A stretch of 64,000 bases of DNA from contig OZ244999.1 of NCBI GenBank assembly GCA_965223265.1, forward strand, positions 576,001 to 640,000, in the 5' to 3' direction. This DNA comes from Planctomycetota bacterium. Lineage in GTDB: Bacteria > Planctomycetota > UBA8108 > SXIK01. Shown here in pieces: positions 17,482 through 41,304 of this stretch (positions within the stretch are counted from its first letter, which is position 1; each line of letters begins with the position of its first letter). The position numbers were made by a program, and so were the translations under genes. The notes beneath the pieces are model-generated. The model was not told where the DNA came from and did no database searches. It saw only the letters and a list, made by a program, of their open reading frames with translations.

Positions 17482-18384
17482 ATGGAGCGGGATCAACTGC
17501 AGGGTGAGGGTGATCGCTTCCTGATCGAGGAGGTGCGCGCGGGGTCGGCCGATGGTTTTCGGCGCTTGGTTGATCGTTATGGCGGCCGTCTGAAGGCCTA
17601 CGCCTCGCGGAAGCTTTACGGCACAGGGCTCGATCCCGAAGACGCGGTGCAGGAGACGTTTTTGTCGCTCGTGAGGGCGCTCGATCAGCTCGAGGGTGTG
17701 CGGTCGCTGCAGGCCTACCTGTTCACGATCCTTCGCCGGCGGATTGCCGACATGGCGCGAGCCCGCGGACCGGGCGGCACGCCGGTATCCATCGACGTGA
17801 GCGAAAGTTCGCGAGCGCGCCCGGTACTCGCCGCCGACGAAAGCACACCGAGCACCTACGCGCGCCGTGCTGAGGCGGTCGACGTGCGGCGCCTCGTTCT
17901 AGCCGACGTGCTCGACACTCTTCTCGCTCGCCTCAAGGAAAAGAAGGAGTTTCGCCACCTGAAGATCCTCGAGCTCATCTTCGTACATCGGAAGAGCCAA
18001 CAAGACATCGCGGCGATCGTGAAGACAAGCGAGCCGACCGTCTCACGCACCCGCAAGTCGCTCGTCGAGGAACTCCGCAGGTTGGTCGCCCGCCACGCGC
18101 AGGCCGACGCGCTGCAAGATCTGACGGCGGAGCAGGAAGTCGATGGCCTCATCACGGAGGTATGGCACGAAAACCTGTTCACCTGCGTCAAGCGCAGCAC
18201 GCTCGGCTCCTACGCGCTCGACGTCTTGGAGGCCGATTGGGCCGACTACGTCCGTTTCCATCTCGAGACGCTCGGCTGCGAATTCTGCGCCGCGCACCTC
18301 GCCGACGTCGAACGAGGCGGAGAGCGGATCTCGGCCTCGACGCGCGATCGGATTTTTATGTCGAGTGTTGGTTTTTTGAAGTGA
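17482..18384 (+). CDS. ECF RNA polymerase sigma factor with C-terminal Cys/His extension
   Basis: EDAVQETF, YLFTILRRRIAD, region 4 HTH SQQDIA...SEPTVSR; tail TCVKRS...FHLETLGCEFC. Confidence 0.88.
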   Translation: MERDQLQGEGDRFLIEEVRAGSADGFRRLVDRYGGRLKAYASRKLYGTGLDPEDAVQETFLSLVRALDQLEGVRSLQAYLFTILRRRIADMARARGPGGTPVSIDVSESSRARPVLAADESTPSTYARRAEAVDVRRLVLADVLDTLLARLKEKKEFRHLKILELIFVHRKSQQDIAAIVKTSEPTVSRTRKSLVEELRRLVARHAQADALQDLTAEQEVDGLITEVWHENLFTCVKRSTLGSYALDVLEADWADYVRFHLETLGCEFCAAHLADVERGGERISASTRDRIFMSSVGFLK

Positions 18385-18399: not shown

Positions 18400-18540
18400 C
18401 TCCTGCGCTAGAAACGATCGCCTCTGCTGGCGATCCGACACGAGACGGACGTTTTTCACCAGCGGAAAGCTGTCGCTCGCCTCACCGAGGGGCCGATTTC
18501 TCCGTCGGACTAAAAACGAACCTGGGACGGGATTCTCGGA
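18400..18540 (+). mobile_element. Right-end remnant of the Y1/HUH element, ending in the junction motif
   Basis: CTAGAAACGATCGCCTCTG...GGCGATCCG resembles 22239-22290; AAAAACGAACCTGGGACGGGATT begins at 18512. Confidence 0.7.
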
Positions 18541-18577
18541 TTCTCCGGAAACACGCGCCCCCTCGCGTGCCCGAGAT

Positions 18578-19180
18578 CTACTGCACCCACGACTTGGCGA
18601 AATCGGACGGCCAGTAGCGCTCGGGGAGTGGCATGGCAACGAACGGCGCTGTTGGTCTCACGACCACCGGTAAAAAAGAAGAGCAAAGACGTCGCCCGGG
18701 AAGATGCTTACGGACAAAGTACGTCGTCGAAACCTGACAGCGGTGGGCCGGACTGATCGAATGGGGAACGGGCAGGCCGTAAACGCGCGTCATTTCGTCG
18801 GTCAAGTAATCGGCGATCCCAAAGAGCTCCGGGTCGGTTGGCTCCGTGTTCTTGAGGCCATAGAGTTGGTGCGCCACGTCCTTGAGGTACTGCGGATCGG
18901 CGCGGTCGCCGGCGTCCAAGGAGTAGACCAGCTCGCCAGGGCAATCGTCGTTCCCGTCCTCGAACATCAGAGCGTTCGCTTGGATGACGTGCCCCCACAC
19001 AACGACGCCCTCAGAGAAGAGACTGCGCAGGTTCGCGAAGATAATCGTCAGTTTGTCGGTCGGACACTGGCGAAGCCACGACGGTGTCGGCACACGGAAA
19101 TAGGTCAACCGGTCCCAAAACGACAAGTCGCGAGGCGCGGGACCGAAGTTTGCGATGCATTCACGAATCATCTCTTGCAT
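18578..19180 (-). CDS. Orphan cassette gene, putative immunity protein
   Basis: 200-aa ORF bracketed by junction motifs (18512 and ~19210), same strand as the other immunity genes. Confidence 0.6.
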   Translation of the reverse strand: MQEMIRECIANFGPAPRDLSFWDRLTYFRVPTPSWLRQCPTDKLTIIFANLRSLFSEGVVVWGHVIQANALMFEDGNDDCPGELVYSLDAGDRADPQYLKDVAHQLYGLKNTEPTDPELFGIADYLTDEMTRVYGLPVPHSISPAHRCQVSTTYFVRKHLPGRRLCSSFLPVVVRPTAPFVAMPLPERYWPSDFAKSWVQ

Positions 19181-19245
19181 TAGACGCTCGAAGTCTCCTC
19201 TCGAATGGTTCGAGGTTCGTGTTGCCTACGAATCTACGAATCCGT

Positions 19246-20783
19246 CAGTAGTGTTCGGCACGCTTTGTGCTTCGTCCCCCGGCCGGCTGACACGAACAAG
19301 GCTGCGACTCTTCGCGAGGAATCACAAGGCTGTAAGTCATCGCAGTGATGAGACTTACGAAATCGCTAGAATTTTGAGGAGCTTTGTCGCATCCTATAGC
19401 GCGTTGCGAAACGGCTATGGGAAGCACAGAGATGGCCAGATCCGGTGTTCGTAAGCTCCGGGCAGAGGACATTCAGGGTCGCAAGTATCTGAAGGTCTTC
19501 AACGAGATGCTCGGCAAGTTGAGGCTGCATGCTGATCAGGATGGTGCAGCGGCGAAGAACCGAAAGCTCCATTTTGATCACTACGTCGGTCTCCTGCTTC
19601 TTTACTACTACACGCCCGTGCTGACGAGCTTGCGCTCCATACAGCGCGCCAGCGAGCTGAAGAATGTGCAACGGATGTTGGGCTGCTCACGCGCGGCGCT
19701 GGGCTCGCTGAGCGAAGCTTCTTCCGTCTTCGATCCCGCCGTTCTGCGAGAAGTCATCAGGAATCTGGCCTCGGAAGTAGAAGTTCAGGGTGACGTGTCG
19801 AACAAAGCCCTGGAAGGTCTCACCGCGGTTGACGGGACACTTCTGAAAGCCATCCCTAAGATGACCTGGGCACTGTGGCGTCGTGACGAAAAAAACCGTG
19901 CTGCGAAAGTGCACCTGGTTTTCGACATACTGCGCCAAGCTCCAGCAGACGCTACTCTGACGGATGCGAATGCCTCGGAGAAACAGCAGTTGCGTGGCAT
20001 GTTGGAGAAGGGACGTTTCTACGTTCTCGACGCAGGATATGCGCAGTACAAGCTATTCGCGGACATTATCGATGTAGGTAGCTCGTTCGTCTGTCGTATT
20101 CGTGACGACGCGGCCTGGAAACTGATCGAAACGCGAGAGATAAGCTCGGAAGCAGAGGCTGCGGGAGTTGAGCTGGACGTGGTTGTGCGGATTGGTTGTC
20201 CAAACACTCGAGCTAGAATCAAACGCCCCGTCCGAGTGATCAAGGTTCAGCCACCGTCAATTGACGGAGTGCAGCGTGACCCGATGTTTTTGGCAACCGA
20301 TAGGCTCGATCTTGACGCCGAACTGGTTGCGCTGGCGTATCGTCACCGCTGGTCAGTGGAGCTCTTCTTCAAATGGTTCAAGTGCATTCTGGGCTGTCGT
20401 CAACTCCTGAGTCACAGCGAAAGAGGCCTAACGATTCAGGTTTACATGGGAATCATCGCGAGCCTGCTAATCAGTGTCTGGATCAGGCGAAAGCCGACCA
20501 AAGCCACGCTGGAGATGCTTTGGTTCTACATGTCTGGAATGGCCGATGACGAGGAACTGATCGCGCACGTCGAGCGGTTGCAAAAGCACGCGAAAAGCTG
20601 ACGAAGGGTCCCCCGCAATCCTGTCGGTGACTCGGCGGTTCCCCATCCCTCGAATTGATCGAAACGACTTGATTCGGGCACGCGCATCCCACATCGCTTG
20701 AGCGCAACGGGCAGTCGGACGGAGAATCCTTATGTGTCCAGCCCGTGGCTCCGTAGCAGCAAAATGAGGGCCGAACACTACTG
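19246..20783 (+). mobile_element. IS4-family insertion sequence
   Basis: 14-bp terminal IRs CAGTAGTGTTCGGC / GCCGAACACTACTG; 9-bp TSD CGAATCCGT at 19237-19245 and 20784-20792. Confidence 0.93.
19432..20601 (+). CDS. IS4 family DDE transposase
   Basis: AVDGT, VLDAGY, YRHRWSVELFFKWFK (YREK signature). Confidence 0.93.
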   Translation: MARSGVRKLRAEDIQGRKYLKVFNEMLGKLRLHADQDGAAAKNRKLHFDHYVGLLLLYYYTPVLTSLRSIQRASELKNVQRMLGCSRAALGSLSEASSVFDPAVLREVIRNLASEVEVQGDVSNKALEGLTAVDGTLLKAIPKMTWALWRRDEKNRAAKVHLVFDILRQAPADATLTDANASEKQQLRGMLEKGRFYVLDAGYAQYKLFADIIDVGSSFVCRIRDDAAWKLIETREISSEAEAAGVELDVVVRIGCPNTRARIKRPVRVIKVQPPSIDGVQRDPMFLATDRLDLDAELVALAYRHRWSVELFFKWFKCILGCRQLLSHSERGLTIQVYMGIIASLLISVWIRRKPTKATLEMLWFYMSGMADDEELIAHVERLQKHAKS

Positions 20784-20789
20784 CGAATC

Positions 20790-21000
20790 CGTCCGAGGTT
20801 CATTTTCCCGTCTCGTCGCCGCTTGCTCGGTCACATAGAAAGCAAGATATCGTCACAAATCGACAAAAAAGGCACAGTTATCGCGAAAACGCGGCAGTTC
20901 AACGATACTGTCTGATCCCTGCCTGATCGATCCCTGCCTGATCCTGACCGAGGTTCGTTTGCGCATGCCTGATCTTGATCTGCCTGACCGAGGTTCGTTT
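20790..21000. repeat. Left-end motifs (G(T/A)CCGAGGTTC(G/A)TTT x3) with stutters and a duplicated left-end remnant
   Basis: Motifs near 20791, 20946 and 20986; GATCCCTGCCT duplicated; AGCAAGATATCGTCACAAATCG at 20841 and 21026. Confidence 0.8.
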
Positions 21001-21228
21001 TCTCCCGGTGTGAGGTCAAACAGACAGCAAGATATCGTCACAAATCGAAGAAAAAAGCGCCGATGTCAATTTTGACCGTCCGCATGCGAACAGTTGTAGC
21101 GAGTACGCAACAACTGGGTGATCCATCGAGAGTCGGCACTCTCGACGAGTCCGAGTCCTCACACCGACTTACGTCATATTTGCGTGTCCGTGTGGGAGTG
21201 GAACAGCGTTTGCGTATAGGTTGCGGCG

Positions 21229-22128
21229 ATGACAGCGCCACGACAAATCATCCCCGGCACGACGTAAATGATCACCAGACGCCGCGCGCAGCGTCAGTTC
21301 CTCCTTCGACCTTCGAAGGCGGTGAACCAGGTCGTTCTCTATCTGCTGGCGTACGCTGCAGAACGTTTTTCGATCGACGTTCATGCGTACGTTCTCAGTA
21401 ACCACTATCACCTCGTCGTGACCGATCGGCTTGGCAATCTTCCCGCTTTCATGCAGTTTTTGAACTGCCTAATCGCCCGAGCACTGAACGCCTACTACGG
21501 ACGCTGGGAGAACGTTTGGGCGCCTGGATCTTACAGTGCGGTGACGCTCGTCGGTGAGGAGGACGTCGTGGAGAAGATCGTCTACGTCCTCGCGAACCCA
21601 GTGGCTGCGGGACTAGTTTCGCGCGGCGAGGAGTGGCCGGGGCTGCGTTCGTCGCCGCGGGACTTTGGAACACGCGTTGAAGTCGAACGACCAGCGTTTT
21701 TCTTTCAAAAAGAGGGTGATGCGACGGAGAGCATCGCGCTGAGCATCTCTGCACCGCAGTTTGCTTCTGGACTCTCGGGCGAGGAGCTCGCGCCTCTCGT
21801 CGAAGAAAAACTTCAAACGCGGGAAGCTGAGATCCGCACCGAAACGGCGCGGCGCGGCAAAAAGTTCGCTGGCGTCAAGGCTGTCCGCCGCCAGGACCCG
21901 CTGGGACGCCCTGGCAACGCGGAGCCTCGGCGAAGGCTGAGTCCACGTTTTGCATGCCGCGACAAGCATCGGCGCATCGATACGCTCGTGAAGTACAAGA
22001 CGTTCCTCAGAGAGTATCGCGAGGCCCTGCGGGACTTCTGCGAGGGCCTGCGCGAAGCGCTCTTTCCCCACGGCACCTACTGGATGCGTGTTCACTTCGC
22101 GGCGCGCTGCGCGCCGATGCCGCCGTAG
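21229..22128 (+). pseudogene. HUH/Y1 transposase (IS200/RAYT-like), copy 1; TAA at codon 13, possible restart at ATG 21268
   Basis: NHYHLVV HUH motif, YVLANPVAAGLV with catalytic Tyr; TAC in copy 2 is TAA here. Confidence 0.85.
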
Positions 22129-22288
22129 GGCGGTTGGTTCTCGAGGTTGCCAGCGCGTATTCGCTTCATGCCGAGCCCGATCTGCGATCAGCTTGTGTCC
22201 GCCGATTGCCTGAGCTGCATGAGAATCTCCGTCTCCGCCTAGAAACGATTGCCTCTGACGGCGATCCGTCGCGAGGCAGGCGTTCTCG

Positions 22289-22774
22289 TCATTCAGGAGT
22301 GTGTGGTAATTCATCGAGCACCTCGCAAATATCTGAACTAATAGTCGAGATCTTTACGTACTCATCAGCCCGCGTGATTTGAACTCCACCCAGTTCGACA
22401 ATAAACCGTGGCCACGATGGCAGTATTCGTGGAGGAACATCTCGAAAGAGAATGAGCATGTCGTCTTCCGTTCGTGGAACGAGTGGTGACACATCCCCCA
22501 TACCGACATAGACGAAAGGTCGGGGACTTTGTGAGCCGTCAATACGTCGGGTCTCAAGAGATTGGACGTAAGGATCTGTAGTACGTGTCTCGTCTTCGAC
22601 GTAAGCCACGACGTACGGTCGATCTCGCCGTATCCGCCATAGGTTTGAAAGGATAACTGCGTCGATGAGCTGTTCATTTCTTACCGAGTCCGGGAGCAGC
22701 GGAAGCAGAAGGTAATGAATAACGGAATCGTCCTGCCAAGGCGGACAGGCATGTTTTAACAGTGATAGTGACAT
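22289..22774 (-). CDS. Putative immunity protein for the upstream orphan Rhs-CT
   Basis: 161 aa, lower GC, directly downstream of the toxin CT. Confidence 0.65.
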   Translation of the reverse strand: MSLSLLKHACPPWQDDSVIHYLLLPLLPDSVRNEQLIDAVILSNLWRIRRDRPYVVAYVEDETRTTDPYVQSLETRRIDGSQSPRPFVYVGMGDVSPLVPRTEDDMLILFRDVPPRILPSWPRFIVELGGVQITRADEYVKISTISSDICEVLDELPHTPE

Positions 22775-24653
22775 ATCTCAACCGTTATCGCAGACGGGTC
22801 TCTCGCGTTTCACTTCGCATTGAATTGCGTTCTTAAGAACCCGGAATCTTGTCTCCGGGAGAAAATCTTGCGTGACTGAACTGCGTGCCTGGGATGTCTA
22901 CATGGAAGTGAGGCCCCCTGTGAAACTCCGGCGCATTCGCATGATAGGGGTGTTGCTCAAATGTTATTCTCATCCGTCCTTGCGGAGTGGAAACATCCCA
23001 GTCAACTCTTCCGCGGCCTGGCAACGGTTGTCCGGTTTGAGGGTTCATGTCCGGCCGTCGTGTCCCCGGGAATCCCAAAAGCTCGTCGAACTCGTCAGCG
23101 CTGTTTGGAAATCGGAAATCACTCGCCCTCCTAGGGACAGTGTGAAGCACGCCATCCTGAAAATGTAACGCAGCTGGCCGTGATCGAGACAGACAATTTA
23201 GCTTGGCAGCTGCAAGCCTTGCGCCCGCCTTCATGGAGCCACCGGCCCCGGCCAAGTCGTAGGCGAGCTCGGCATAGTACTGACCGGTTTGATCCGCCCC
23301 CATGTCGAGTGCTACCTGCTTAGCCACCTGCCCTCCGATCGTTGGCCCCCCAAGAATTCCAGCTTGGAAAGAATCAGCGCCGTGCCCAATCAAGAACGTG
23401 CCCAAGGCCAGCACACCTAGCCCCGGAGCTGTCCCGACGCCTGTCGTACTCGCTGCCGCTCCGATTCCAAGCAGCGCGCCGCCTAAAGCGACCTCTGCCG
23501 CGCCGCCGACGGCTTGCAAGGCGCGCCCCGCAGCGTTCCACACGTCAAACAACCCCATCGGATCCAGCCCATTGACCGGATTCCCCCCAACATAAGCATA
23601 GGCATTCCCAGCATTGCCGGGATCGCCCCACACGCCTATGGGATCGCGGCTGACGAAGCGGCCGAGTGTGGGGTGGTACTGGCGTAGTCGGAAGTGGTAG
23701 AGCTGGGTCTCGAGGTCGAGGCGGCGGTCGGCGAAGAGGATGTCGTTTTCGTGGCTTGACGCCCCTGAGGGGTTCTGAAACGACGCGTCGAGGAAGGTCA
23801 CTTTGCCGTAGGCGTCGTAGTCGTAGCGCTCGAGCACGGCTCCGCTAGCGTCGAGGAGCGCGGTGACGTTCATGTTGGCGTCTTGCGTGTAGTACTCTGG
23901 GTCGTCGAGCTCGTCGATGTCGCCGTCGGCGTCGGTGTCGCGCACGCGCAGAGCGATCGCGTCGATGTAGACTGGGTGGTAGAGGTACTCTTCCTTCAGC
24001 GTTGTCGACAGCACCGGGTCGGTCGTCGGGTTCGAGCCGCGATCGACGGTGTCTTTGCGCACCTGCACGACTTGCCAGCCGGCGCCGTAGTAGTACTCCC
24101 ACACATCCCAGTTCGTCGTCGCGGACTGTTTGGCGAACTTGCGAGTGCGCCTGCCGAGTCCATCGTAGCGGTACTCCGCGATGACCTCGCCGGCCTGCTT
24201 GACTGCCACCATGCGGTCGAAGGCGTCGAAGACGTACTCGTGCTCGGCGAGAGCCTCACTGCCCGGGATCGGCGCCTTGGTCGCGCTACCGTTGGCATCG
24301 AACTCCGGGTCCTTCCAATTCGAGATCGCCGTCGCACTCGGCGGATCGGAGTGGTCGTTGTCGTCGTCAACCTCGTTGGCGTCGTTGTGCTGGCGCGTCT
24401 GCGTCGTCCAGCTGCTGAGTCCCACAAACTCTGGCTCGTGAGCAGCGACGAGTCTCAGATTCACTGACCCGGAAACGCCCCGGCATACCCCGCCGAACCG
24501 ACCGTCCGATCATACCCCGCCTACCCCGCGCCCCCCGTTCGACGCTGCGCCCTGGACCTTCGCTCGACTCCTCGCCTCACCTCGAGTAAAGAGGGGAGCG
24601 GAGAGACCGGTGTTGGTGCACTTCTCTCCGCAAGTCCCCGTACGGAGAGAGCG

Positions 24654-25322
24654 ATGCTACCCCATTTGGTCAACGCGATACAGAGCTATGGCGAAGCTGT
24701 TCGCCGCCGTGAGATCCAGCCGACCTGTAACCGCTGCCCGAATTGCAGCGGGGAGCCAGATCGGTTCCGCTACCGCGGTCACCGAGAGCGCGTGTTCCTC
24801 GTTATCGTCAGGCGTCTGGTCGAACCTGTCCTGTCGCTTCTGAGTCGCTGGAAGTGTCCTCTGTGTAAGCGCTCCTTCACGCTCTACCCGCCCTTCGCGC
24901 TGCCGGGGAAACGCTACGTTCGCGACTGCGTTTTCGATCACGCTCGGCGCTACCTCCAGATCGACGAGCTTTCGTATCGCGAAGCCGTCAAGGTCGAACA
25001 CATGCCCGTCTTCCACGAGGGTGACGACAGGGGAGCGATCGACGAGCGCAGCCTCGCGCACTCAACACTTCATCGTTGGCTTTCGTTCTTTCGCTCTCTC
25101 AACGCCACGCTCCTGGAGGCTCTCCGCCTCATCCGAGAGCGCTCGGCGAGGTCCGACATCTTCCGCAAGGTCTTCGCCGTCCGTCCAGCCAAGTACCGAA
25201 GCGAATCACGGCGGGACACTCTCGTCGCGGCACTTCGAGCTCTCTCGATCGACCAGGTGTTCCGTTCCCTCTTCGGCCGATCGATCTTCCCCGACTTGGC
25301 AACCTCCGCAGCCTGGGCGTGA
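24654..25322 (+). CDS. Zn-ribbon transposon accessory protein (DUF6431-like)
   Basis: CPNC...CPLC, LYPPFALPGKRY, HSTLHRW. Confidence 0.7.
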   Translation: MLPHLVNAIQSYGEAVRRREIQPTCNRCPNCSGEPDRFRYRGHRERVFLVIVRRLVEPVLSLLSRWKCPLCKRSFTLYPPFALPGKRYVRDCVFDHARRYLQIDELSYREAVKVEHMPVFHEGDDRGAIDERSLAHSTLHRWLSFFRSLNATLLEALRLIRERSARSDIFRKVFAVRPAKYRSESRRDTLVAALRALSIDQVFRSLFGRSIFPDLATSAAWA

Positions 25323-25362
25323 GCGAGAATCACGCCTCGCTCGCCCCATGCGAGGTGTGATC

Positions 25363-26925: not shown

Positions 26926-27716
26926 TGTTCACCACCCATTTCAAGATGACGACGCAGCCCTTTCTCGAGCGCGCGCCCGTCGAGCAGATTCTTTCCGACG
27001 AGCGCATCACCCAGGGACTCGCTCGACTGGAGTACCTCGCCAAGTCGGGCTCGATCGGCCTGGTGACCGGACTCACCGGGGTGGGGAAGTCGTCTCTGGT
27101 GAAGCTCTTCGTGCGCTCGCTGAGCCGCAACCTCTACGACCCGATCTATCTCTCGCTGACCTACGTCGGGGCAAACGGCATTCTGAAGCTCCTGGTTTCC
27201 AGCCTCGGCGAGCAGCCCCGCCGTGGCAAGGAGCGGCTCTTCCTCCAGATCCTGGATCGCGTCGGGGCGAACGAGCACACGACAATCCTCGTCATCGATG
27301 AAGCGCACCTGCTTCCTTCGGAGTCGCTCACCGATCTGAGACTTCTGGTCAGCTCCGGACTCGAGGACGGCCCGCCATTGAAGATCCTCCTCAGCGGACA
27401 AGAGACCCTGAGAAAGGAGCTTACCCGAGCGCGCCACGCCGATCTCACGCATCGGCTCAGCGTGCGCTACCACGTGCCGCCGCTCAGCAAGGAGCAGACG
27501 GTCGAGTACATCGACTTTCAGATGCGCGCAGCCGGCGCCTCGCAGAAAGTCTTCGAGCCTGAAGCGAAGTCGCTCATCCACGACTACTCAAGCGGCGTGC
27601 CGCGGCGCATCAACAACATCGCCACCGCCTGCCTCATTCAGGCCGCGAGCAAGAACGTCCAGAAGATCTCCGAGGCGCTCGTCAACGACACCGCCCCCGA
27701 GTTCCATCTGCCCTGA
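26925..27716 (+). CDS. ExeA-like AAA ATPase (transposition helper)
   Basis: GLTGVGKS Walker A, LVIDEAH Walker B, GVPRRINN. Confidence 0.9.
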   Translation: MFTTHFKMTTQPFLERAPVEQILSDERITQGLARLEYLAKSGSIGLVTGLTGVGKSSLVKLFVRSLSRNLYDPIYLSLTYVGANGILKLLVSSLGEQPRRGKERLFLQILDRVGANEHTTILVIDEAHLLPSESLTDLRLLVSSGLEDGPPLKILLSGQETLRKELTRARHADLTHRLSVRYHVPPLSKEQTVEYIDFQMRAAGASQKVFEPEAKSLIHDYSSGVPRRINNIATACLIQAASKNVQKISEALVNDTAPEFHLP

Positions 27717-27735
27717 GAACGGAGACTGACGCGCC

Positions 27736-28029
27736 ATGTTCCACAAGACCCTGATGCCTCGAGTCAACGACTTCGCCGAGTATCCTGAGCTCGCCGTTTT
27801 GATGACCCTCGCGACGAACCTCGAGATCGCCCTGTTCGCTCTGAACGCCGCGTACCCCGATCTCGACTTCGACTACACGCAACGCTCCTCCTACACCGAG
27901 CAAGACGCCTATCTCGCCGCCTTGGGCGCTCAGCTGCGAGCGCTCCAGATCGTCCTCGAAGAGTATCTCGAGAGCCTGCAACGAATCCGATATTTGAAGG
28001 CGCCGAGCGGTGGAGGTGGCGTCGCATGA
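27736..28029 (+). CDS. Small transposon hypothetical protein
   Basis: 97 aa, GGAG RBS, overlaps next gene. Confidence 0.65.
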   Translation: MFHKTLMPRVNDFAEYPELAVLMTLATNLEIALFALNAAYPDLDFDYTQRSSYTEQDAYLAALGAQLRALQIVLEEYLESLQRIRYLKAPSGGGGVA

Positions 28030-28343
28030 CAGGACGATTCTCCGGCAAGCTCCTGCGGTCGTTGAGAAACGATATACCGATCGCGTGGCTCCTCGATCTG
28101 CTCGGCGTCCCCGCGAAAATCTCCGAGGGCTACGTGCGCTTCCTCTGTCCGCGGTGTCGCGAATTCAACACCGCGACGAAGGCGTCCACCAACCTCGCGC
28201 GTTGCTTTCGCTGCGAGACGAACTTCAACCCGATCGACCTGGTCATGATCGTCAAGCGGCTGAATTTCGTCGACGCCGTCGAGTTCCTCGCCGAGCTCCG
28301 CGATCGTCGCGGTGACGCTCGCGCCACGCCTCGCCCTTCGTGA
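28026..28343 (+). CDS. CHC2-type (primase-like) zinc-finger protein
   Basis: FLCPRC...ARCFRCETNFNPIDLVM...FVDAVEFL. Confidence 0.8.
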   Translation: MTGRFSGKLLRSLRNDIPIAWLLDLLGVPAKISEGYVRFLCPRCREFNTATKASTNLARCFRCETNFNPIDLVMIVKRLNFVDAVEFLAELRDRRGDARATPRPS

Positions 28344-28670
28344 TTCCCCGGGTCGTCGTGCCGTCCGGGACACGACGACCCGCGCCTTCTCGCCTCGCAA
28401 ATCGCATCTCGCACCCGCGAATCAGCACCATGCCATTTAATCTGGGATTTCCGCGCCAGATACTGTGGGACTTAGCATCCAGCTTTGGCCGTTGTTGGTC
28501 GAGGTCTTGAACTCGGTCCAGTTGCCGAGCTCATCGAACGTCCACTCGGCCTTGTAGGTGGCGTTGGTGATCGACGGCCCGCCGCCGGTCAACTTGCCGC
28601 GGTCGAATTCGGTGAGGCGATAAAGACCGTCGTAGGCATACTCCTGGTCGCGGTCGAGGTTCGCCGTGCC

Positions 28671-28790
28671 GGGATCAAAAACGACCCTGGGACGGGGTTT
28701 TCGTCCGCGAAAATGACCCTGGGACGGGGTTTCCGGGTTACCGGGACGGGTTTTCCGAGGTTTTAAAAACGACCCTGGGACGGGATTTCC
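28671..28790 (+). repeat. Junction motif mini-array AAAACGACCCTGGGACGGG (3 copies plus 1 partial)
   Basis: Cores at 28682, 28714, 28741 (partial) and 28770. Confidence 0.9.
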
Positions 28791-28854
28791 TCGTCGTGCT
28801 GCGATCGAAAGACTTCAACTTGAACACGCGCGCTATCAAAGATGGGACGGGACT

Positions 28855-29331
28855 TCACGTTCCCTCCCGAAACGAAAGCGTACTGATCAACGAGTCCAAG
28901 TAGTTTCCCTCCCAGCTTCCCGACGCTTTCAGGCGACGAAGTTCGGAAACGACAGCGGGGCGTGGCTTCCAGTCCCGGAGGCACGAAACGTGTAGGTGAG
29001 TGAACGAATATGGGTACAGCGGGTCCGAGAGTTCTGACGTGAGGTGGTGGATCAGGAGGTAGTCATCAGGGTGAAGTACCTCTCTATCGCAGACCACGCA
29101 AATTCGATTGCCGGGACCAGTTTGTTTCGACCAACTTGCGAAGCGCTCTTTCACGACGTTCCGTAGAGGATGTTGTTCGAAGCAAACCTTGTGAAACGCG
29201 GTGTCACTGAAGAAGAACAATTCGTCTTTCTCGTTCACGACGAACGCGGGAAAAGCAATCGTTTTCCCCAGTTCCGAAATCGGTTTGCTACAAATCCGAC
29301 AGGTTGTTTGCCCCTCGATTATCAACGCCAT
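28855..29331 (-). CDS. Putative Cys/His zinc-binding immunity protein
   Basis: CRIC...HKVC...CVVC...HVSC; follows the JAB fragment; GGAGGTAGGTG upstream. Confidence 0.7.
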   Translation of the reverse strand: MALIIEGQTTCRICSKPISELGKTIAFPAFVVNEKDELFFFSDTAFHKVCFEQHPLRNVVKERFASWSKQTGPGNRICVVCDREVLHPDDYLLIHHLTSELSDPLYPYSFTHLHVSCLRDWKPRPAVVSELRRLKASGSWEGNYLDSLISTLSFREGT

Positions 29332-29338
29332 CGTTCAC

Positions 29339-29512
29339 CTACCTCCTACGGCGCACGACCGTAACTTGACCTCCGTGGAACACGTACTGTTTGCTCTGAC
29401 TCAGGCCTAGAAAGCGCCTCGACATCGGCTGCGCTGGGTAGAGAACTGTCCGGGTGAGTGTGTCCAAAGATACGCGTAATCTCGCCTCCCTTGAAGTGGG
29501 CAATCCATCCCG
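29339..29512 (-). pseudogene. 3' fragment of a JAB/MPN-domain toxin
   Basis: GHTHPDSSLPSAAD (HxH...SxxD); begins at the junction motif; apparent frameshift near 29405. Confidence 0.65.
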
Positions 29513-29766
29513 AGCCCGGGTTCGTTTCTCGTCCTGTCTCGTCCGTCGCAGAGTCACCTAGACAGCAAAATATAGGCACAAATCGGAGAAAAAATCGCCG
29601 ATGTCAATTTTGAACGTCCGTATGCGAACAGTTGTAGCGAGTACGCAACAACTGCGTGATCCACCGGGAGTCGGCAGTTTCGACGAGTCTGAGTTCCTGC
29701 GCAGACTTACGTCATATTTGTGTGACCTCGCGGCCGTGGAACAGCGTTTGCCTGTAGGTCGCGGCG

Positions 29767-30667
29767 ATGACGGCGCCGCGACAAATCATCCCTGGGACGA
29801 CGTACTTGATCACCAGACGCTGTGCGCAGCGTCAGTTCCTGCTGCGACCTTCGAAAGCAGTGAATGAGGTCGTTCTCTATCTTGGCGTGCGCCGCGGAGC
29901 GCTTTTCGATCGACGTCCACGCTTACTGTGCAATGAGCAATCACTACCACTTAGTCGTCACGGACAGGTTCGGGGTCCTGCCGGCGTTCATGCAGCTTCT
30001 GAACTGCCTGATCGCCCGTGCCCTCAATGCCCACTATGGTCGCTGGGAAAACGTGTGGGCGCCTGGTTCTTACAACGCCGTGACGCTGGTCGACGAGGAC
30101 GACGCGGTCGAGAAGATCGTCTACGTTCTCGCCAACCCGGTGGCAGCGGGTTTGGTCTCGCGCGGTGAAGAGTGGCCCGGACTGCGCTCGTCGCCGCGGG
30201 ACTTCGGCACGTGTCTTGAGGTCGAACGGCCAGCGTTTTTCTTTCAAGAAGATGGCTAGACGCCCGAGAGCGTCGCCTTGAGCATCTCGGCGCCGCAGTT
30301 CGCCTCTGGGCTCCCCGGGGAGGAGCTTGCACCTCTCGTCGAGGAGAAACTTCAAGCGCGGGAGGCCGACATACGCGCCGACATGGCTCGGCGCGGCAAG
30401 AGGTTCGCGGGCGTCAAGGCCGTCCGTCGCCAGAGCCCGTTGGCGCGTCCTGGCGATCCGGAACCGCGGCGAATGCTCATCCCTCGCTTCGCCTGCCGCG
30501 ACAAGCAGAGGCGCATCGACGCGCTCATGAAATACAAAGAGTTCCTCAGAGAATACCGTGAGGCCCTACGGGACTTCTGCGAAGGCATCCGTGAAGCGCT
30601 GTTTCCCTACGGCACGTACTGGATGCGTGTTCACTTCGCGGCGCGCTGCGCGCCGAGGCCGCCGTAG
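29767..30667 (+). pseudogene. HUH/Y1 transposase copy 2 (frameshift ~29880, TAG at 30257)
   Basis: MTAPRQIIPGTTYLITRRC, MSNHYHLVV, YVLANPV; colinear with copy 1. Confidence 0.88.
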
Positions 30668-30899
30668 GGCGAACGGCCGCACGCGGTCACGTTGATTCGA
30701 GCATGGCGTTTCAGCTCCGCGTCAGGAGCCGTGGTCAACCTACGTCCCTTAGTTGCCACAACTGCATGAGAATTCCCCTCGCAGTATCAAAACGAGAGCG
30801 CTCGACAGCGGTGCAGCCCCGAAACACGCCGCTTCGACGTCCGAGGGCCTAAACACGCCGTGAAAATCGGTCGTTTTCGAAACGACGAACTCGCGCTCC

Positions 30900-31060
30900 A
30901 AAAACGAACCTGGGACCCCTTCCTCCGAAAACGAACCTGGGACGGGTTTTCCACCAAAAACGAACCTGGGATAGGTTATCCCAAAAACGAACCTGGGACG
31001 GGTTATCTGGTTATCTGCAAAAACGAACCTGGGACGGGTTATCTGACGGGTTATCTGTTA
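30900..31060 (+). repeat. Junction motif mini-array AAAACGAACCTGGGA x5
   Basis: Cores at 30905, 30932, 30961, 30988, 31024; GGTTATCT stutters. Confidence 0.92.
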
Positions 31061-31072
31061 CGCGGTGTGTCG

Positions 31073-31438
31073 TCAAAGTTCTACGTTGGCCAGGTCAAGG
31101 GTCTCCTTCCGTAGCTCCCACCTGTTGGACTCCATCCACTGCTCTAACTCTTCGGGAATTCGAACATTGTATTTTGAAACGTAGTAAAGCAGGTCTCTTG
31201 GCCACGCCCACTCTCCATCTGTCAAGATGTCTGGGGGACCGATCACAGGCTTGTCAGGGTCGAGAACGTCGTGAACGATGCCAGGGCACGCTATGAGCAC
31301 TTCTCCTTGGCTCAGGTAGGAGGCGATCTCAGTGGCATGGCTCAGAGGTTCGTCAGACACCAGAGACCGCAGGCTCTCCCCTCCGGGATCACCGTGTCCC
31401 AATTCACGGAAGAATCCAAATCGGCGTAACTTTTTCAT
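31073..31438 (-). CDS. Putative immunity protein for the caspase-fold CT
   Basis: MKKLRRFGFFREL...LTDGEWAWPRDLLYYV; ATGA overlap with the toxin stop. Confidence 0.75.
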   Translation of the reverse strand: MKKLRRFGFFRELGHGDPGGESLRSLVSDEPLSHATEIASYLSQGEVLIACPGIVHDVLDPDKPVIGPPDILTDGEWAWPRDLLYYVSKYNVRIPEELEQWMESNRWELRKETLDLANVEL

Positions 31439-33336
31439 TTTCCTGGCGTAAATGTATTCCACACGCCCGTGTTGGACGTTGGAGAGTTTCCTATTGTCAG
31501 GTTCCCGTTCCGATGAATCCACAGGGTGTCGCTGGGTGCAGTGACTTCGGCTCCTATCTTATTCGACAGATTCTGGGCAACACCAGTAGGACAGCTCCCC
31601 GTTCCGCATGATAGTAGACGAACTGGTCCTCCAGAGTACCCTTGCTTTTTCATGAACGTCGCAAGTGAACGATGGTTCATTTTCACCCACTTCCCGTTGT
31701 GCAAAACGTGAAACGCATCGGAGCTGCCGTGGACCACGACATCGAAGACGCCTTTCTGAGGCTTCACCCAGCTTGCGGCCTCGGCTAGGTCGTCGCCGAG
31801 CCTGGCGGACGCCGCTACACAACTCTTCTTCCTCCGGTGCTTCTTTAGGGCGTCCCGGTACTCTCGATACTTCCTGAGGTTCTCTCTCGCGTGAGCAAGA
31901 TCCTCTGCGGTCTCAGCAGCCTTTGCGGCAGCTCTCCAGCGCTTTACTTGTCGATGAGCGAACTTGAGCGCGGGACCACTGCCCGCGCTGACGGCATGAA
32001 GGGCGAGAGTTTCGCCGGCTTCCTTGGCCACGTCCGCGGCAAGGTCGCGCAACCCTTCGCGGACTCCTGCGAGCCGTTCTCCGATTCCGCTCCCGTTGTT
32101 CATTCCCGCGCGTGCAGTTGGAGTCAGCCAATCGACGTTGTCCGAATTTGTGCGACTCCACATGTCCATGTCCGCCAACCCCATCGGATCCAGCCCATTG
32201 ACCGGATTCCCGCCAACATAAGCATAGGCATTCCCAGCATTGCCGGGATCGCCCCACACGCCAATGGGATCGCGGCTGACGAAGCGGCCGAGTGTGGGGT
32301 GGTACTGGCGCAGGCGGAAGTGGTAGAGCTGGGTCTCGAGGTCGAGGCGGCGGCCGGCGAAGAGGATGTCGTTGTCGTGGCTTGACGTGCCCGAGGGATT
32401 CTGAAACGACGCATCGAGGAAGGTCACTTTGCCGTAGGCGTCGTAGTCGTAGCGCTCGAGCACGGCTCCGCTCGCGTCGAGGAGCGCGGTGACGTTCATG
32501 TTGGCGTCTTGCGTGTAGTACTCCGGGTCGTCGAGTTCGTCGATGTCGCCGTCGGAGTCGGTGTCGCGCACGCGCAGAGCGATCGCGTCGATGTAGACTG
32601 GGTGGTAGAGGTACTCTTCCTTCAGCGTTGTCGACAGCACCGGGTCGGTCGTCGGGTTCGAGCCGCGATCGACGGTGTCTTTGCGCACCTGCACGACTTG
32701 CCAGCCGGCGCCGTAGTAGTACTCCCACACGTCCCAGTTCGTCGTCGCGGACTGTTTGGCGAACTTGCGAGTGCGCCTTCCGAGTCCGTCGTAGCGATAC
32801 TCCGCTATGACCTCGCCGGCCTGCTTGACTGCCACCATGCGGTCGAAGGCGTCGAAGACGTACTCGTGCTCGGCGACAGCCTCACTGCCCGGGATCGGCG
32901 CCTTGGTCGCGCTACCGTTGGCATCGAATTCCGGGTCCTTCCAGTTCGAGATCGCCGTCGCACTCGGCGGATCGGAGTGGTCGTTGTCGTCGTCAACCTC
33001 GTTGGCGTCGTTGTGCTGGCGCGTCTGCGTCGTCCAGCTCTGGCCGTTGTTGGTGGAGGTCTTGAACTCGGTCCAGTTGCCGAGCTCGTCGAACGTCCAC
33101 TCGGCCTTGTAGGTGGCGTTGGTGATCGAAGGCCCGCCACCGGTCAACTTGCCGCGGTCGAACTACGTGAGGCGGTAAAGACCGTCGTAGGTGTACTCCT
33201 GGTCGCGGTCGAGGTTGGACTGACCCGTCAGAGCAATGTCACGGTAGAGGCGATTGCCTGCGTCGTCGTGATTGTAGAGAAAACGATCCGCATCAGCGGT
33301 GCCGCTGCTACCGTCGCAGTAGTGACCCTTGATGCG
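31435..33336 (-). pseudogene. Orphan Rhs core fragment plus caspase/C80-like cysteine peptidase CT
   Basis: Homology to main Rhs from 33336 to DPMGL at 32176; in-frame TAG at 33163-33165; CT VVVHGS...VRLLSCGTG...VAQNLSNKIG. Confidence 0.85.
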
Positions 33337-33740
33337 TATAACCGTATATAACCGTATAACCTGTCCGAGGTTCGTTCTTTCGTTCTTTCTCCCGCTGCTT
33401 TCAGCTTCCCGGGTCATGTAGACAGCAAGGAATCGTCACAAATCGAACAAAAGAACATCGAGGTCAATTCGAGACGTGGCGCGAACAACGACCCTGGGAC
33501 GGGTTTCCGGGTTGCGGAAAACGACCCTGGGACGGGATTGTTTAAAACGACCCAGGGGCGGGCTTTCCGCCCGGGGATCAAAAACGACCCTGGGACGGGT
33601 TCGTGGGAACCTGGGAGAACTTTGACCTCGGTCGTTCATCCACTAACGACCCTGGGACGGGTTTTCTTTTCTGCCGGGATGAAAAACGACCCTGGGACGG
33701 GATTTCCAAAAAAAAAGGATTTCCAAAAGGATTTCCATCC
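33335..33740. repeat. Internally deleted Y1 element: stutter, left end, then right-end array of ~6-7 CGACCCTGGGACGGG copies
   Basis: CGTATAAC x3; GTCCGAGGTTCGTT at 33363; leader remnant to ~33485; cores at 33489, 33522, 33548, 33585, 33647, 33687; GGATTTCCA x3. Confidence 0.88.
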
Positions 33741-33753
33741 CGGTGTGTCCAAA

Positions 33754-34080
33754 CTATCCAGCGTTGATCGATGTAATCCTCCCGACCCCGATCACCCGGT
33801 ACGAATCCAGCAACTCGACAAGCTCGTCCTCGACAAGGTGCCTACGGGTCTTTTCCTCTCCCTCGAACGCTGGATTAGCAAGGCGAAGCTCCACGGTGCT
33901 GGATCCAGTGGACTCATCGAAATCGAGATTGATAATCTCAACATCTCGTCCCCCGGAAAGCCAATCGCCAACCGCTCTCTGAAACCGAATTGTTGGACGA
34001 AGCCCCACAACGGGATCGTGTTGCCGACCTCCGACTTCCGGCTTCAACCATTGAACGGTCACTGTGAATGTGAGGCTCAT
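33754..34080 (-). CDS. Cognate Rhs immunity protein, EF-Tu domain III-like
   Basis: FTVTVQWLKPEVGGRQHDPVVGLRPTIRF...ELLDSYRVIGVGRITSI resembles the EF-Tu C-terminal barrel; starts 3 bp after the toxin stop. Confidence 0.7.
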   Translation of the reverse strand: MSLTFTVTVQWLKPEVGGRQHDPVVGLRPTIRFQRAVGDWLSGGRDVEIINLDFDESTGSSTVELRLANPAFEGEEKTRRHLVEDELVELLDSYRVIGVGRITSINAG

Positions 34081-41196: not shown

Positions 41197-41304
41197 GCGC
41201 TTATCCTTGAAAACGGGTTCGTTTGGGTTGGATTCACGTTCGGTCGTACGAGGGTGCTGGGCCTCGGCTCTTTCTCGGGCGCTCAAGGCCCGCATCTCTT
41301 CGCC

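What the first reader, a model, noticed from the sequence alone, without database searches (positions are those of the whole stretch)
18400..33740. Integron-like Rhs toxin/immunity cassette array punctuated by the ends of an HUH (Y1) transposase element
Seen: downstream of the full rhs/immunity pair lie four minus-strand cassettes (31073-33336, 28855-29512, 22289-28670, 18578-19208). Seven of the eight cassette borders abut one motif, AAAACGA(A/C)CCT(G/C)GGAC(G/A)GG(T/A)TT; the exception is 22289, where the element's right end is cut off. The motif is forward at 18512, 28677-28790, 30900-31060 and 33487-33740, and inverted at ~19210, 20791, 20946, 20986, 29514 and 33363. It forms the inverted ends of a Y1 transposase element found as two copies plus remnants, always antisense to the cassettes. 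Toxin fragments start mid-gene at different points, each next to a motif (33336, 28670, 29512). Known: orphan Rhs CT/immunity arrays are usually attributed to homologous recombination; RAYT/IS200 HUH enzymes cut ssDNA at short motifs; integrons build arrays with tyrosine recombinases. Inference: an HUH transposase captures or rearranges toxin/immunity DNA at these motifs, forming an acquired interbacterial defence array.
Basis: partly seen in the sequence, partly recalled or inferred. Interest (0 to 1): 0.92.

Follow-up and report, generated by a model that had tools for sequence, protein, structure and literature searches.

The report
Rhs toxin array interleaved with Y1 elements
A planctomycete Rhs toxin/immunity gene array has a copy or remnant of one small HUH-transposase element between every two modules, a pairing that recurs in other genomes, but nothing shows that the enzyme itself captures the cassettes.

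Summary
The motif gives 17 matches in the window against 0.01 expected. It forms the ends of a ~1.6-kb unit that encodes a 300-aa Y1 HUH protein, with inverted copies on the left and a direct array on the right. Copies or remnants of this unit, all antisense to rhs, separate one full rhs/immunity pair, two orphans that keep rhs core, one toxin-tail/immunity pair and one lone ORF.

The unit is of a known kind: a TIRtron/TIRYT-like relative of RAYTs. It is not toxin-specific, since it lies at 10 places in the genome, mostly beside ordinary genes. Both window copies of the Y1 gene are broken, and the motif is not a stable hairpin.

Y1 genes of this family nevertheless lie just downstream of, and convergent with, rhs/immunity pairs far more often than chance allows:
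- 2 rhs loci here;
- 3 of 3 in a sister genus;
- 1 of 9 in a third genus;
- 3 metagenome contigs.
This holds in at least 5-6 separate Y1 lineages.

Best reading: an ordinary Rhs displacement array whose module borders were shaped by this element through insertion, adjacent deletion and recombination. Integron-like capture by the enzyme is possible but unshown.

The parts
18408..18534 (+). Right-end remnant of the Y1 element: tail sequence plus one forward motif (18513-18534), directly after the sigma-70 gene 17482-18384
   Evidence: tail matches 22239-22284 and two other genome places
18578..19180 (-). ORF D, 200 aa, no family match. A lone cassette between a right-end remnant and a left-end motif pair, with no toxin fragment upstream
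19204..19245 (+). Degenerate inverted motif (ggttcgaggttcgtg) and the first half of a left-end motif pair, ending in the 9-bp target duplication CGAATCCGT
   Evidence: Read
19246..20783 (+). IS4-family insertion sequence (transposase 19384-20601, 405 aa), single copy in the genome, flanked by the 9-bp duplication CGAATCCGT (19237-19245 and 20784-20792)
20784..20880 (+). Second half of the split left end: inverted motif 20785-20806 plus a truncated leader (…atcgtcacaaatcgacaaaaaagg)
20940..22285 (+). Y1 element copy 1: two inverted motifs (20940-21001), leader, Y1 gene 21229-22128 with TAA at codon 13, and a tail cut at 22285 with no right-end array
22289..22774 (-). Presumed immunity gene of orphan B (161 aa, no family match)
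22833..24413 (-). Orphan B, lower part: rhs core residues 1893-2180 (94.4% nt identity to the main gene) ending in DPMGL, then a unique C-terminal domain
24414..28478 (+). 4,065-bp transposon (634-aa rve/Mu-transposase-C protein, 338-aa AAA_22 ATPase) inserted in orphan B. The flanking core pieces overlap by 7 nt. It has 10 copies in the genome at 99.98-100% identity
28479..28670 (-). Orphan B, upper part: rhs core residues 1831-1894 (96.4% nt identity), cut at 28670
28678..28854 (+). Solo right-end array (3 full motif copies and partial copies, the last ending at the stop codon of the next gene), with no left end or Y1 gene
28855..29512 (-). Module C: presumed immunity gene 28855-29331 (158 aa) and a 57-codon tail of a presumed toxin gene (29339-29512), cut by the element's left end
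29514..31056 (+). Y1 element copy 2: degenerate inverted motif, leader, Y1 pseudogene 29767-30667 (frameshift and TAG), tail, and a right-end array of 5 forward motifs (30900-31041) plus a partial copy
31073..33336 (-). Orphan A: presumed immunity gene 31073-31522 (149 aa), a unique C-terminal domain, and rhs core residues 1794-2180 (93.0% nt identity) with an in-frame stop near 33150. It is cut at 33336
33337..33750 (+). Miniature element with no Y1 gene: short GTATAACC-type repeats, inverted motif 33357-33378, leader, then 6 forward motifs (33485-33704) and partial repeats
33754..34080 (-). Presumed immunity gene of the main rhs (108 aa). Its stop lies about 4 nt beyond the shared ...cggtgtgtc that follows the right-end array
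34084..41295 (-). Full-length rhs gene (2,403 aa): RHS repeats, Rhs-associated core ending in DPMGL at residue ~2180, and a unique C-terminal domain

Best explanation
What it is (shown). This is the 3' tail of an Rhs polymorphic-toxin locus. It holds one full rhs gene with its immunity gene and two displaced orphan modules that keep 350-390 codons of rhs core. It also holds one module worn down to a toxin tail plus an immunity gene, and one lone ORF. Between every two modules lies a copy or remnant of one element of the TIRtron/TIRYT kind. That element encodes a 300-aa class-2 Y1 HUH protein (NHYH ... YVLANP). It has 1-5 inverted copies of a 17-22-nt motif on its left and 2-24 direct copies on its right. 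All copies point the same way, antisense to rhs.

How it most likely arose (inferred). The modules were stacked by recombination in the shared rhs core, as in other Rhs loci. The element habitually sits hard against the 3' end of a convergent gene, and rhs/immunity pairs are a favoured neighbour. Each module therefore carries an element copy behind its immunity gene. The element ends then shaped the borders in three ways:
- insertion next to motif-like sites inside the rhs core;
- deletions running outward from the element ends, which eat into the dispensable orphan toxin gene but stop at the immunity gene;
- recombination between the directly repeated element copies.

The Y1 enzyme may have made some of these joints. 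A dedicated cassette-capture role is not shown.
For: - Rhs anatomy. RHS repeats and the Rhs-associated core were found at three places in the window. DPMGL is followed by three unrelated C-terminal domains.
- The orphans share 93.0%, 94.4% and 96.4% nt identity with the main core, without gaps.
- Element anatomy and its 10 genomic places.
- Y1 identity: REP-associated tyrosine transposase model at 43 bits over residues 3-124; invariant H60, H62 and Y120; best fold matches 4er8 (E. coli RAYT), then IS608 and ISDra2 TnpA.
- Copies inside one genome are old paralogs. G001 copies are 66-80% nt identical, limited to the coding region. G000 copies are 67-83% aa identical. This is the pattern described for RAYT/TIRYT genes (PMC6006769 and PMC3733652, passages read).
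- The association recurs. Y1 lies within 5 kb downstream of an rhs core end at 2 G000 loci (0.049 expected), 3 of 3 in G001 (0.027 expected) and 1 of 9 in G025.
- In 80 metagenome Y1 loci there are 3 Rhs core ends in 112 kb of downstream flank and 0 in 98 kb of upstream flank.
- Y1 is antisense to rhs at 9 of 9 loci.
- The rhs-linked Y1 genes are scattered over the family tree: 6 label changes for 8 rows.
- Tight abutment is general. In 6 of 7 G001 copies with a convergent neighbour, the neighbour's stop lies 222-381 nt after the Y1 stop, about the length of the element's own tail.
- Graded wear at the left ends: residue 1794, residue 1831, a 57-codon tail, then nothing. All immunity genes are whole.
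- The rhs core has motif-like 9-mers 9 and 17 nt before the two orphan cut points. There are 6 such clusters in 7.2 kb.
- In metagenome locus L123 the right end abuts an rhs repeat fragment.
Against: - No step of the proposed history is seen directly. There is no empty site, no strain lacking an element copy and no intermediate.
- No simple insertion of this element into an rhs core, with both core halves preserved, was found in any genome examined.
- Recombination between element copies should mostly delete modules, so it does not by itself explain how modules accumulate.
- The exact meeting of an orphan's start with the element's outermost left end (33336/33337) looks more like a transposase-made joint than a deletion end point.
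- A 409-nt right-end block is 99.3% identical between two G001 rhs loci whose rhs proteins are only 26% identical. So right-end pieces moved recently between rhs loci without a whole Y1 gene, which the passive reading does not predict.
- The motif-like sites near the junctions were noticed after the fact.
- The convergent-neighbour bias does not hold in the metagenome sample: 19 of 39, with a crude gene caller.
Confidence: 0.5

Rival explanations
1. Active capture or mobilisation. The Y1 HUH enzyme, acting in trans from the intact paralogs, cuts at the end motifs and at look-alike sites in the rhs core. It moves or joins DNA segments made of element plus immunity gene plus toxin tip. This could happen by composite or one-ended transposition, in the manner of ISCR/IS91 read-through. 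Toxin/immunity modules would then travel with the element and be laid down one after another behind the rhs gene.
For: - Seven of eight module borders are element ends, all in one orientation.
- Orphan A starts exactly at the outermost left end.
- Orphan B is joined to the first motif of a right-end array 9 nt after a motif-like 9-mer in the core.
- Three intact Y1 paralogs exist, two of them with near-identical motifs.
- A miniature element and solo ends, which could be moved in trans, are present.
- In G001, cassettes lie between Y1 3' fragments, and a 409-nt right-end block is 99.3% identical at two unrelated rhs loci.
- The association recurs in 5-6 Y1 lineages.
Against: - No cassette occurs twice in the genome, so no moved module is seen.
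- Most family members sit beside ordinary genes.
- Within-genome copies are old and divergent, unlike an active transposon.
- Both local Y1 genes are broken.
- The motif is not a stable single-strand hairpin of the kind known Y1 enzymes bind: z-scores from -0.66 to +0.62 in 8 folds.
- The look-alike core sites have the left-end orientation, which does not fit simple read-through past the right end.
Confidence: 0.3
2. Safe-haven accumulation. The orphan tail of an rhs locus is dispensable DNA where any mobile element can persist. The Y1 copies, the IS4 and the 4-kb transposon simply piled up there. The match between element ends and module borders reflects only what selection lets survive.
For: Three unrelated mobile elements lie within 16 kb. 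One of them, the 4-kb transposon, is clearly a recent random insertion with 10 near-identical copies genome-wide. The orphan toxins are inactive fragments.
Against: - The excess of this Y1 family just downstream of rhs in three genera and in metagenome contigs, always antisense, is hard to get by chance. P is about 1e-3 for G000, 3e-6 for G001 (or 3.5e-4 if the two paralogous G001 rhs loci count once), and 9 of 9 for orientation.
- All element copies in the window share one orientation and sit at module borders. The IS4 and the 4-kb transposon do not.
Confidence: 0.12
3. Assembly artefact. The order and number of modules and element copies were mis-assembled across repeats in a metagenome-derived genome.
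For: Short-read unitigs from four public runs stop at every repeat and do not bridge any element or core repeat.
Against: - Each unique piece, with its junction into the adjoining repeat, is reproduced without differences in all four runs (table 8).
- The element copies differ from each other (82% identity between copies 1 and 2), as do the core fragments (93-96%), so they are not collapsed or duplicated reads.
- The same layout is seen in independent assemblies of other genera.
Confidence: 0.05

Closest known systems
TIRtrons / TIRYT genes (Di Nocera et al. 2013, PMC3733652) = TnpA-Y1 subclass 2.1 (Quentin et al. 2018, PMC6006769) = RAYT group 1
   Same: A class-2 Y1 HUH protein with NH[YF]H and Y...NP motifs and a long C-terminal extension. 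The gene is flanked by inverted repeats rather than REP hairpins. There are few copies per genome, with low identity between them. The flanking repeats are sometimes in clusters. The motif here contains TGGGACAG/TGGGACGG, close to the published GGGGWSAS. The papers report many such genes in a planctomycete (passages read).
   Different: The ends here are multi-copy arrays, up to 24 direct copies. The repeats do not spread beyond the Y1 loci. The protein is longer (300 aa against a median of 238), and its C-terminal part matched no helix-turn-helix family here. No link to Rhs or toxin cassettes is mentioned in the passages read or found by searches. Placement in subclass 2.1 rests on motifs only, not on the authors' models.
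REPtrons: RAYT genes with flanking REP/REPIN sequences
   Same: The Y1 gene is flanked by short repeats in inverted orientation. The best structural match is the E. coli RAYT bound to a REP hairpin (4er8). The repeats lie just downstream of genes, between convergent ORFs (abstract of PMC3733652).
   Different: There is no stable palindromic hairpin and no GTAG/CGTC tag. There is no genome-wide repeat population: all 51 core matches lie at the Y1 loci.
Rhs orphan toxin/immunity arrays (displacement model; Zhang et al. 2012, PMC3482391; Salmonella and E. coli work recalled)
   Same: A full rhs gene is followed by 5'-truncated modules that keep part of the core, each with its own C-terminal domain and a small downstream gene. 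The core identity is high enough for homologous recombination.
   Different: Here every module border is an end of one Y1 element. In the passages read from that review, 'transposase' occurs once, in another context, and transposon, mobile element and integron do not occur.
H-rpt (ISAs1-family) elements inside E. coli Rhs elements
   Same: An insertion-sequence-like unit habitually found in the 3' part of Rhs loci. This is recalled from memory. Only a search listing that pairs 'Rhs' with 'H-rpt' was seen.
   Different: H-rpt encodes a DDE-type transposase, not an HUH enzyme. It is not known to sit between every two modules or in one fixed orientation.
Integrons, and ISCR/IS91 gene capture
   Same: An array of promoter-less cassettes in one orientation, each followed closely by a repeated site. 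An HUH enzyme is thought to pick up adjacent genes (ISCR). These properties are recalled from memory.
   Different: Here there is no IntI-type tyrosine recombinase and no attI or attC. ISCR/IS91 enzymes are two-tyrosine rolling-circle HUH proteins with distinct ori and ter ends, whereas this is a single-tyrosine IS200/RAYT-type fold.

Membership tests
TnpA-Y1 class 2 (RAYT/TIRYT) proteins | HUH motif and a single catalytic Tyr in a Y...NP motif on the IS200-type fold | tested here: met
   SNHYHL and YVLANPV are present. H60, H62, Y120 and N124 are invariant in 11 family members. Fold matches are 4er8, 2vjv and 2xo6. The NCBIfam REP_Tyr_transpos model scores 43 bits, below its 80-bit cut-off. 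Pfam Y1_Tnp is not reached at E 0.01.
TIRtron / TIRYT (subclass 2.1) | Gene flanked by terminal inverted repeats, not REP hairpins, with a conserved C-terminal extension | tested here: met
   There are inverted motif copies on the left and direct copies on the right in 5 full-length units. The motif folds no better than shuffles. Residues 150-300 are conserved across the family.
TIRtron / TIRYT (subclass 2.1) | Low copy number and low identity between copies in one genome | tested here: met
   G000: 3 intact and 2 broken copies at 67-83% aa identity. G001: 11 copies at 66-80% nt identity.
TIRtron / TIRYT (subclass 2.1) | Assignment by the authors' own clustering or HMMs, and a helix-turn-helix C-terminal domain | not tested
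   The authors' models and supplementary alignments were not examined. Pfam gave no HTH match for the protein.
IS200/IS605 insertion sequences | Sub-terminal hairpins at both ends on one strand, no inverted repeats, and near-identical copies in a genome | tested here: not met
   The ends are inverted repeats of a weakly folding motif, and the copies are divergent.
REPtron (RAYT + REP/REPIN) | Palindromic REPs with a GTAG-type tag, dispersed in tens to hundreds of copies | tested here: not met
   There are 51 core matches, all at Y1 loci. Fold z-scores run from -0.66 to +0.62.
Integron | IntI tyrosine recombinase gene with attI next to the array | tested here: not met
   None of the 39 window ORFs scanned against Pfam matches a tyrosine recombinase or integrase. 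The five ORFs rescanned at a looser threshold are among these 39.
Integron | Each cassette ends in an attC site that folds as single-stranded DNA | tested here: not met
   The site after each cassette is a direct array of a 22-nt motif with no significant fold.
Rhs polymorphic toxin locus with orphan modules | RHS/YD repeats, an Rhs-associated core ending in PxxxxDPxGL, and variable C-terminal domains each followed by a small gene | tested here: met
   PF05593 and TIGR03696 hits at 34084-41295, 31435-33336 and 22833-24413. DPMGL is followed by three unrelated tails and small ORFs.
Rhs polymorphic toxin locus with orphan modules | The C-terminal domains are toxic and the downstream genes protect | not testable with these tools
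   No toxin or immunity family matched. The roles are inferred from position.
ISCR / IS91 (gene-capturing HUH elements) | Two-tyrosine rolling-circle Rep-type transposase of about 400-500 aa with oriIS and terIS ends | tested here: not met
   The protein is 300 aa with one conserved catalytic Tyr on an IS200/RAYT fold.

The most novel reading that the evidence does not exclude
TIRYT-type Y1 HUH proteins have no known function. In some lineages they may be the recombinases that move Rhs toxin-tip/immunity cassettes. They would cut at their multi-copy end motifs and at look-alike sites conserved in the rhs core, so that a cassette with its trailing right-end array behaves like an integron cassette with its attC. 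This would be a third, HUH-based way of building gene-cassette arrays, beside integrons and ISCR elements. It would also give these 'domesticated' transposases a role.
Probability: 0.15. Interest if true: 0.9.

Novelty: new variant of a known kind. Interest (0 to 1): 0.55.

Why it matters
Two known things, Rhs orphan arrays and RAYT/TIRYT-type Y1 genes, are shown here to go together repeatedly and in a fixed orientation. Searches of the paper library found no such link in print.

It matters in two ways. It offers a lead on how toxin-tip/immunity modules are bounded, moved or trimmed in phyla where Rhs biology is unstudied. It also offers a concrete genomic context in which to test what the widespread but function-less TIRYT/RAYT-group-1 proteins do.

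If the enzyme turns out to make the joints, this would be a new cassette-array mechanism. If not, it is still a clear case of a mobile element shaping the borders of a toxin arsenal.

Tried and rejected
- Public reads. Four runs of one study hold the stretch, but only as short-read unitigs. These break at every repeat. All listed joints have 31 letters or fewer on the shorter side (13 of 14 have 26 or fewer), which the tool itself warns against. So they show nothing about circles, empty sites or alternative orders.
- Replication-strand bias as the cause of the antisense layout. GC skew puts the origin near 7.95 Mb and the terminus near 3.52 Mb. Among the 9 oriented element copies, 3 lie on the leading strand and 6 on the lagging strand, so there is no strict bias.
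- Position-weight scan of the rhs gene with the motif. The matrix was diluted by loose instances, and the site near junction B ranked only 7th of about 14,400 positions. It was replaced by the 9-mer count.
- Hairpin reading of the motif: a 4-5-bp stem, no better than shuffles.
- Paralogous cassettes that would show co-movement with an element end: none, since all nine cassette proteins or segments are unique in the genome.
- Toxin and immunity family assignment: nothing significant.
- Ankyrin-gene cassettes beside element ends at two other G000 places (L003, L006) look like the same layout. Their partners are not recognisable toxins, so they were not counted.
- Six genome-collection loci with distant Y1 relatives (about 40% identity) showed no Rhs.
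- In eight fragmented relatives' assemblies, no Y1 gene and Rhs core lie on one contig. Repeats break those assemblies, so this is uninformative.
- The careful tree search did not finish, so the quick tree was used.
- Earlier notes of this scan: nothing on this genome region, family or topic.

Full report
THE OBSERVATION

The 100 shuffles gave a mean of 0.01. The matches lie at the stated places. A further inverted copy at 20983-20999 matches the 17-nt core. The copies at ~19210 and 29514 are degenerate and visible only by eye.

Genome-wide, the 17-nt core with up to 1 mismatch occurs 51 times, against 1 for the reversed control. All matches lie in a handful of places. So the motif is real, rare and local. 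It is not a dispersed REP-like repeat.

The window lies in a 9.18-Mb single-contig genome with 60.8% G+C. Pfam hits typical of planctomycetes (PSD1, PSCyt1/2, DUF1501) place the organism.

THE RHS LOCUS

ORF 34084-41295 (minus strand, 2,403 aa) is a full Rhs protein. Its core ends in DPMGL near residue 2180, followed by a unique tail and a 108-aa downstream ORF.

- Orphan A (31435-33336) keeps core residues 1794-2180 at 93.0% nucleotide identity. It has its own tail and a 149-aa downstream ORF.
- Orphan B keeps residues 1831-2180 at 94-96% identity, with another tail and a 161-aa ORF.
- Orphan B is interrupted by a 4,065-bp transposon at 24414-28478. This encodes an rve/Mu-type transposase and an AAA_22 ATPase. 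The flanking core pieces overlap by 7 nt. The transposon has 10 copies in the genome at 99.98-100% identity.
- Module C is a 57-codon gene tail plus a 158-aa ORF.
- ORF D (200 aa) stands alone.

None of the tails or small ORFs matches a known toxin or immunity family, so those roles are inferred from position. All are unique in the genome.

THE ELEMENT

Alignment of copies across the genome gives one plan, read in this order:
- one to five inverted motif copies, with an outer GTCCGAGGTTCGTT type and an inner CCCAGGGTCATC type;
- a conserved leader (…agacagcaagatatcgtCACAAATCGAacaaaaa…);
- a 300-codon gene;
- a tail of about 250 nt;
- 2 to 24 direct motif copies.

The protein has SNHYHL and YVLANPV. 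H60, H62 and Y120 are invariant in the family. It scores 43 bits on the REP-associated tyrosine transposase model, below the 80-bit cut-off. A model of moderate confidence (pLDDT 75) matches the E. coli RAYT (4er8) best, then the IS608 and ISDra2 transposases. The motif itself folds into only a 4-5-bp stem, no better than shuffles.

The genome holds three intact copies and two broken ones, plus remnants, at 10 places in all. The broken ones are both window copies: TAA at codon 13 in one, a frameshift and a TAG in the other.

The full-length copies are 67-83% identical in protein. In the sister genus G001, eleven full-length copies are only 66-80% identical in DNA, and the likeness stops about 50-100 nt outside the gene. 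This contrasts with the 4-kb transposon and is not the picture of a young insertion sequence.

It is the picture drawn for class-2 Y1 proteins. Quentin et al. 2018 (PMC6006769, passages read) describe a 'Y…NP' class, with subclass 2.1 carrying NH[YF]H and a C-terminal extension and lacking REPs. They equate this subclass with the TIRYT genes and 'TIRtrons' of Di Nocera et al. 2013 (PMC3733652, passages read). Those genes are flanked by inverted repeats that share GGGGWSAS, and the authors report many of them in a planctomycete. The motif here contains TGGGACAG/TGGGACGG. The homolog search found 2,433 relatives, many named RayT by their sources.

HOW ELEMENT AND MODULES INTERLEAVE

Going up the + strand, the order is:
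- a right-end remnant (18408-18534);
- ORF D;
- a left-end motif pair split by an IS4 element with a 9-bp duplication;
- a second left end with a truncated leader;
- element copy 1, whose right end is missing;
- orphan B;
- a solo right-end array;
- module C;
- element copy 2;
- orphan A;
- a miniature element without a gene;
- the main immunity gene and rhs.

Every element part is on the + strand and every module on the minus strand. Right-end arrays finish 0-45 nt from the stop codon of the neighbouring small ORF. Left ends abut the truncated 5' ends of toxin genes.

IS THE LINK TO RHS MORE THAN LOCAL CHANCE?

Elsewhere in this genome the element lies beside DUF1501 genes (three times), an asparagine synthase, methyltransferases and ankyrin-repeat genes. 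Once it lies 4.3 kb downstream of another rhs gene, again antisense.

I compared Rhs-associated-core hits (TIGR03696) with Y1 hits.
- G000: 2 rhs loci have a Y1 within 5 kb downstream, against 0.049 expected (P about 1e-3).
- G001 (another genus, 4 contigs): 3 of 3, against 0.027 expected (P about 3e-6). Two of these rhs genes are 94% identical paralogs. Counting them once gives 2 loci and P about 3.5e-4. The third rhs is only 26% identical.
- G025 (another family): 1 of 9. The other regions hold no remnant.
- Eight fragmented assemblies give no case, but repeats break them.

In 80 metagenome loci with Y1 relatives of about 50% identity, a home-built Rhs-core HMM finds three core ends. All three are downstream and on the opposite strand, in 112 kb of downstream flank. 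There are none in 98 kb of upstream flank. Two of the three carry the same Tse2-like toxin domain and have close Y1 genes, so they may be one event.

Orientation is antisense at 9 of 9 loci. On a quick tree, the eight rhs-linked Y1 genes need six label changes, so the link is spread over separate lineages.

G001 also repeats the punctuated layout. Cassette ORFs lie between Y1 3' fragments. A right end finishes 6 nt from an immunity gene's stop. A 409-nt right-end block is 99.3% identical at two unrelated rhs loci.

WHAT SPEAKS AGAINST A DEDICATED CAPTURE SYSTEM

- Most family members sit beside ordinary genes.
- Tight abutment of the right end on a convergent gene's stop codon is general. In 6 of 7 such G001 copies the gap from Y1 stop to neighbour stop is 222-381 nt, about the element's own tail. 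This agrees with the published placement of REP/TIR repeats downstream of convergent ORFs (abstract seen).
- There is no tyrosine recombinase, attI or attC.
- The orphans have the core homology that the usual model needs.
- Strand bias relative to replication does not explain the orientation.

WHAT KEEPS AN ACTIVE ROLE ALIVE

- Orphan A begins exactly at the outermost left end.
- Orphan B is joined to the first motif of a right-end array.
- In the main rhs gene, the equivalent cut points are preceded, by 9 and 17 nt, by 9-mers identical to parts of the motif (CGAACCTCG and CTGGGACGG). Both are in the left-end orientation. Only six such clusters exist in the 7.2-kb gene. The chance of both is about 4e-4 to 2e-3, but they were noticed after the fact.
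- In metagenome locus L123 a right end abuts an rhs repeat fragment.

So element ends do get joined to rhs core DNA.

VERDICT

The element is a member of a described but functionally unexplained kind (TIRtron/TIRYT), and the array is an Rhs orphan array.

What is new is their regular, oriented and recurrent pairing. Searches of the paper library did not find it in print, and earlier notes of this scan hold nothing on it.

I hold the passive reading at about 0.5. In that reading, modules are stacked by core recombination, and the element habitually lies behind the immunity gene and shapes the borders by insertion, adjacent deletion and copy-to-copy recombination. I hold active mobilisation by the Y1 enzyme at about 0.3, chance accumulation at about 0.12 and mis-assembly at about 0.05.

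The public reads available here could not decide.

Noticed in passing
window 24414-28478; also G000 at 1112753, 2784391, 4184338, 4763453, 5140254, 5517823, 6679956, 7162457, 8374027: A 4,065-bp transposon is present in 10 copies at 99.98-100% identity, so it was recently active. It encodes a 634-aa rve + Mu-transposase-C protein, a 338-aa AAA_22 ATPase and a small CHC2 zinc-finger ORF. Here it splits orphan B, and the flanking core pieces overlap by 7 nt. One other copy lies about 1 kb from the divergent Y1 copy at 5.52 Mb.
   Followed up: partly
window 19246-20783: A single-copy IS4-family element with a 9-bp target duplication (CGAATCCGT) is inserted exactly into a left-end motif pair of the Y1 element.
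   Followed up: partly
L007 6513-7585 (G000 2,502,513-2,503,585): An array of 24 motif copies with a 365-bp higher-order tandem duplication lies on the left-end side of an intact Y1 gene and is followed by an IS66-family element. It is much larger than any other end array.
   Followed up: no
L001 7083-9099; L010 8971-10756; L011 7369-9200: Three element remnants abut DUF1501 genes in three different configurations. One gene lies between a Y1 remnant and right-end motifs. Whether this reflects a target preference, gene movement or chance in a large gene family was not examined.
   Followed up: no
L003 9569-11487 and L006 2186-6454 (G000 2.43 and 2.48 Mb): Ankyrin-repeat genes, each with an unknown upstream ORF, lie antisense between element ends in the same layout as the window's cassettes, 20 kb or more from the nearest rhs gene. 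They could be toxin-less immunity cassettes.
   Followed up: partly
window 35790-35798 and 35891-35899 (main rhs core): Motif-like 9-mers in left-end orientation lie 9 and 17 nt before the positions where orphans B and A are cut.
   Followed up: partly
G000, e.g. 404659, 496335, 8303381, 8370896, 8820345, 8978611, 9141737: An unrelated repeat family of at least 200 nt surfaced as near-identical copies in a loose pattern search. It begins …gtgaaacgccgccgcgtcgggcg… and contains …atgggctttctcgctttggatcac…. It looks like a multi-copy small gene.
   Followed up: no
L115 2260-3744 and L123 7636-9237 (metagenome contigs): The Rhs proteins convergent with Y1 genes carry a Tse2-like ADP-ribosyltransferase toxin domain. 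This is the only recognisable toxin domain met in the study. In L123 an rhs repeat fragment lies between the immunity gene and the Y1 right end.
   Followed up: partly
window 17482-18384; L041 1291-3243: A sigma-70/ECF-type gene borders the Y1/cassette cluster both here and in G025. This is probably chance, given how many such genes planctomycetes have.
   Followed up: no
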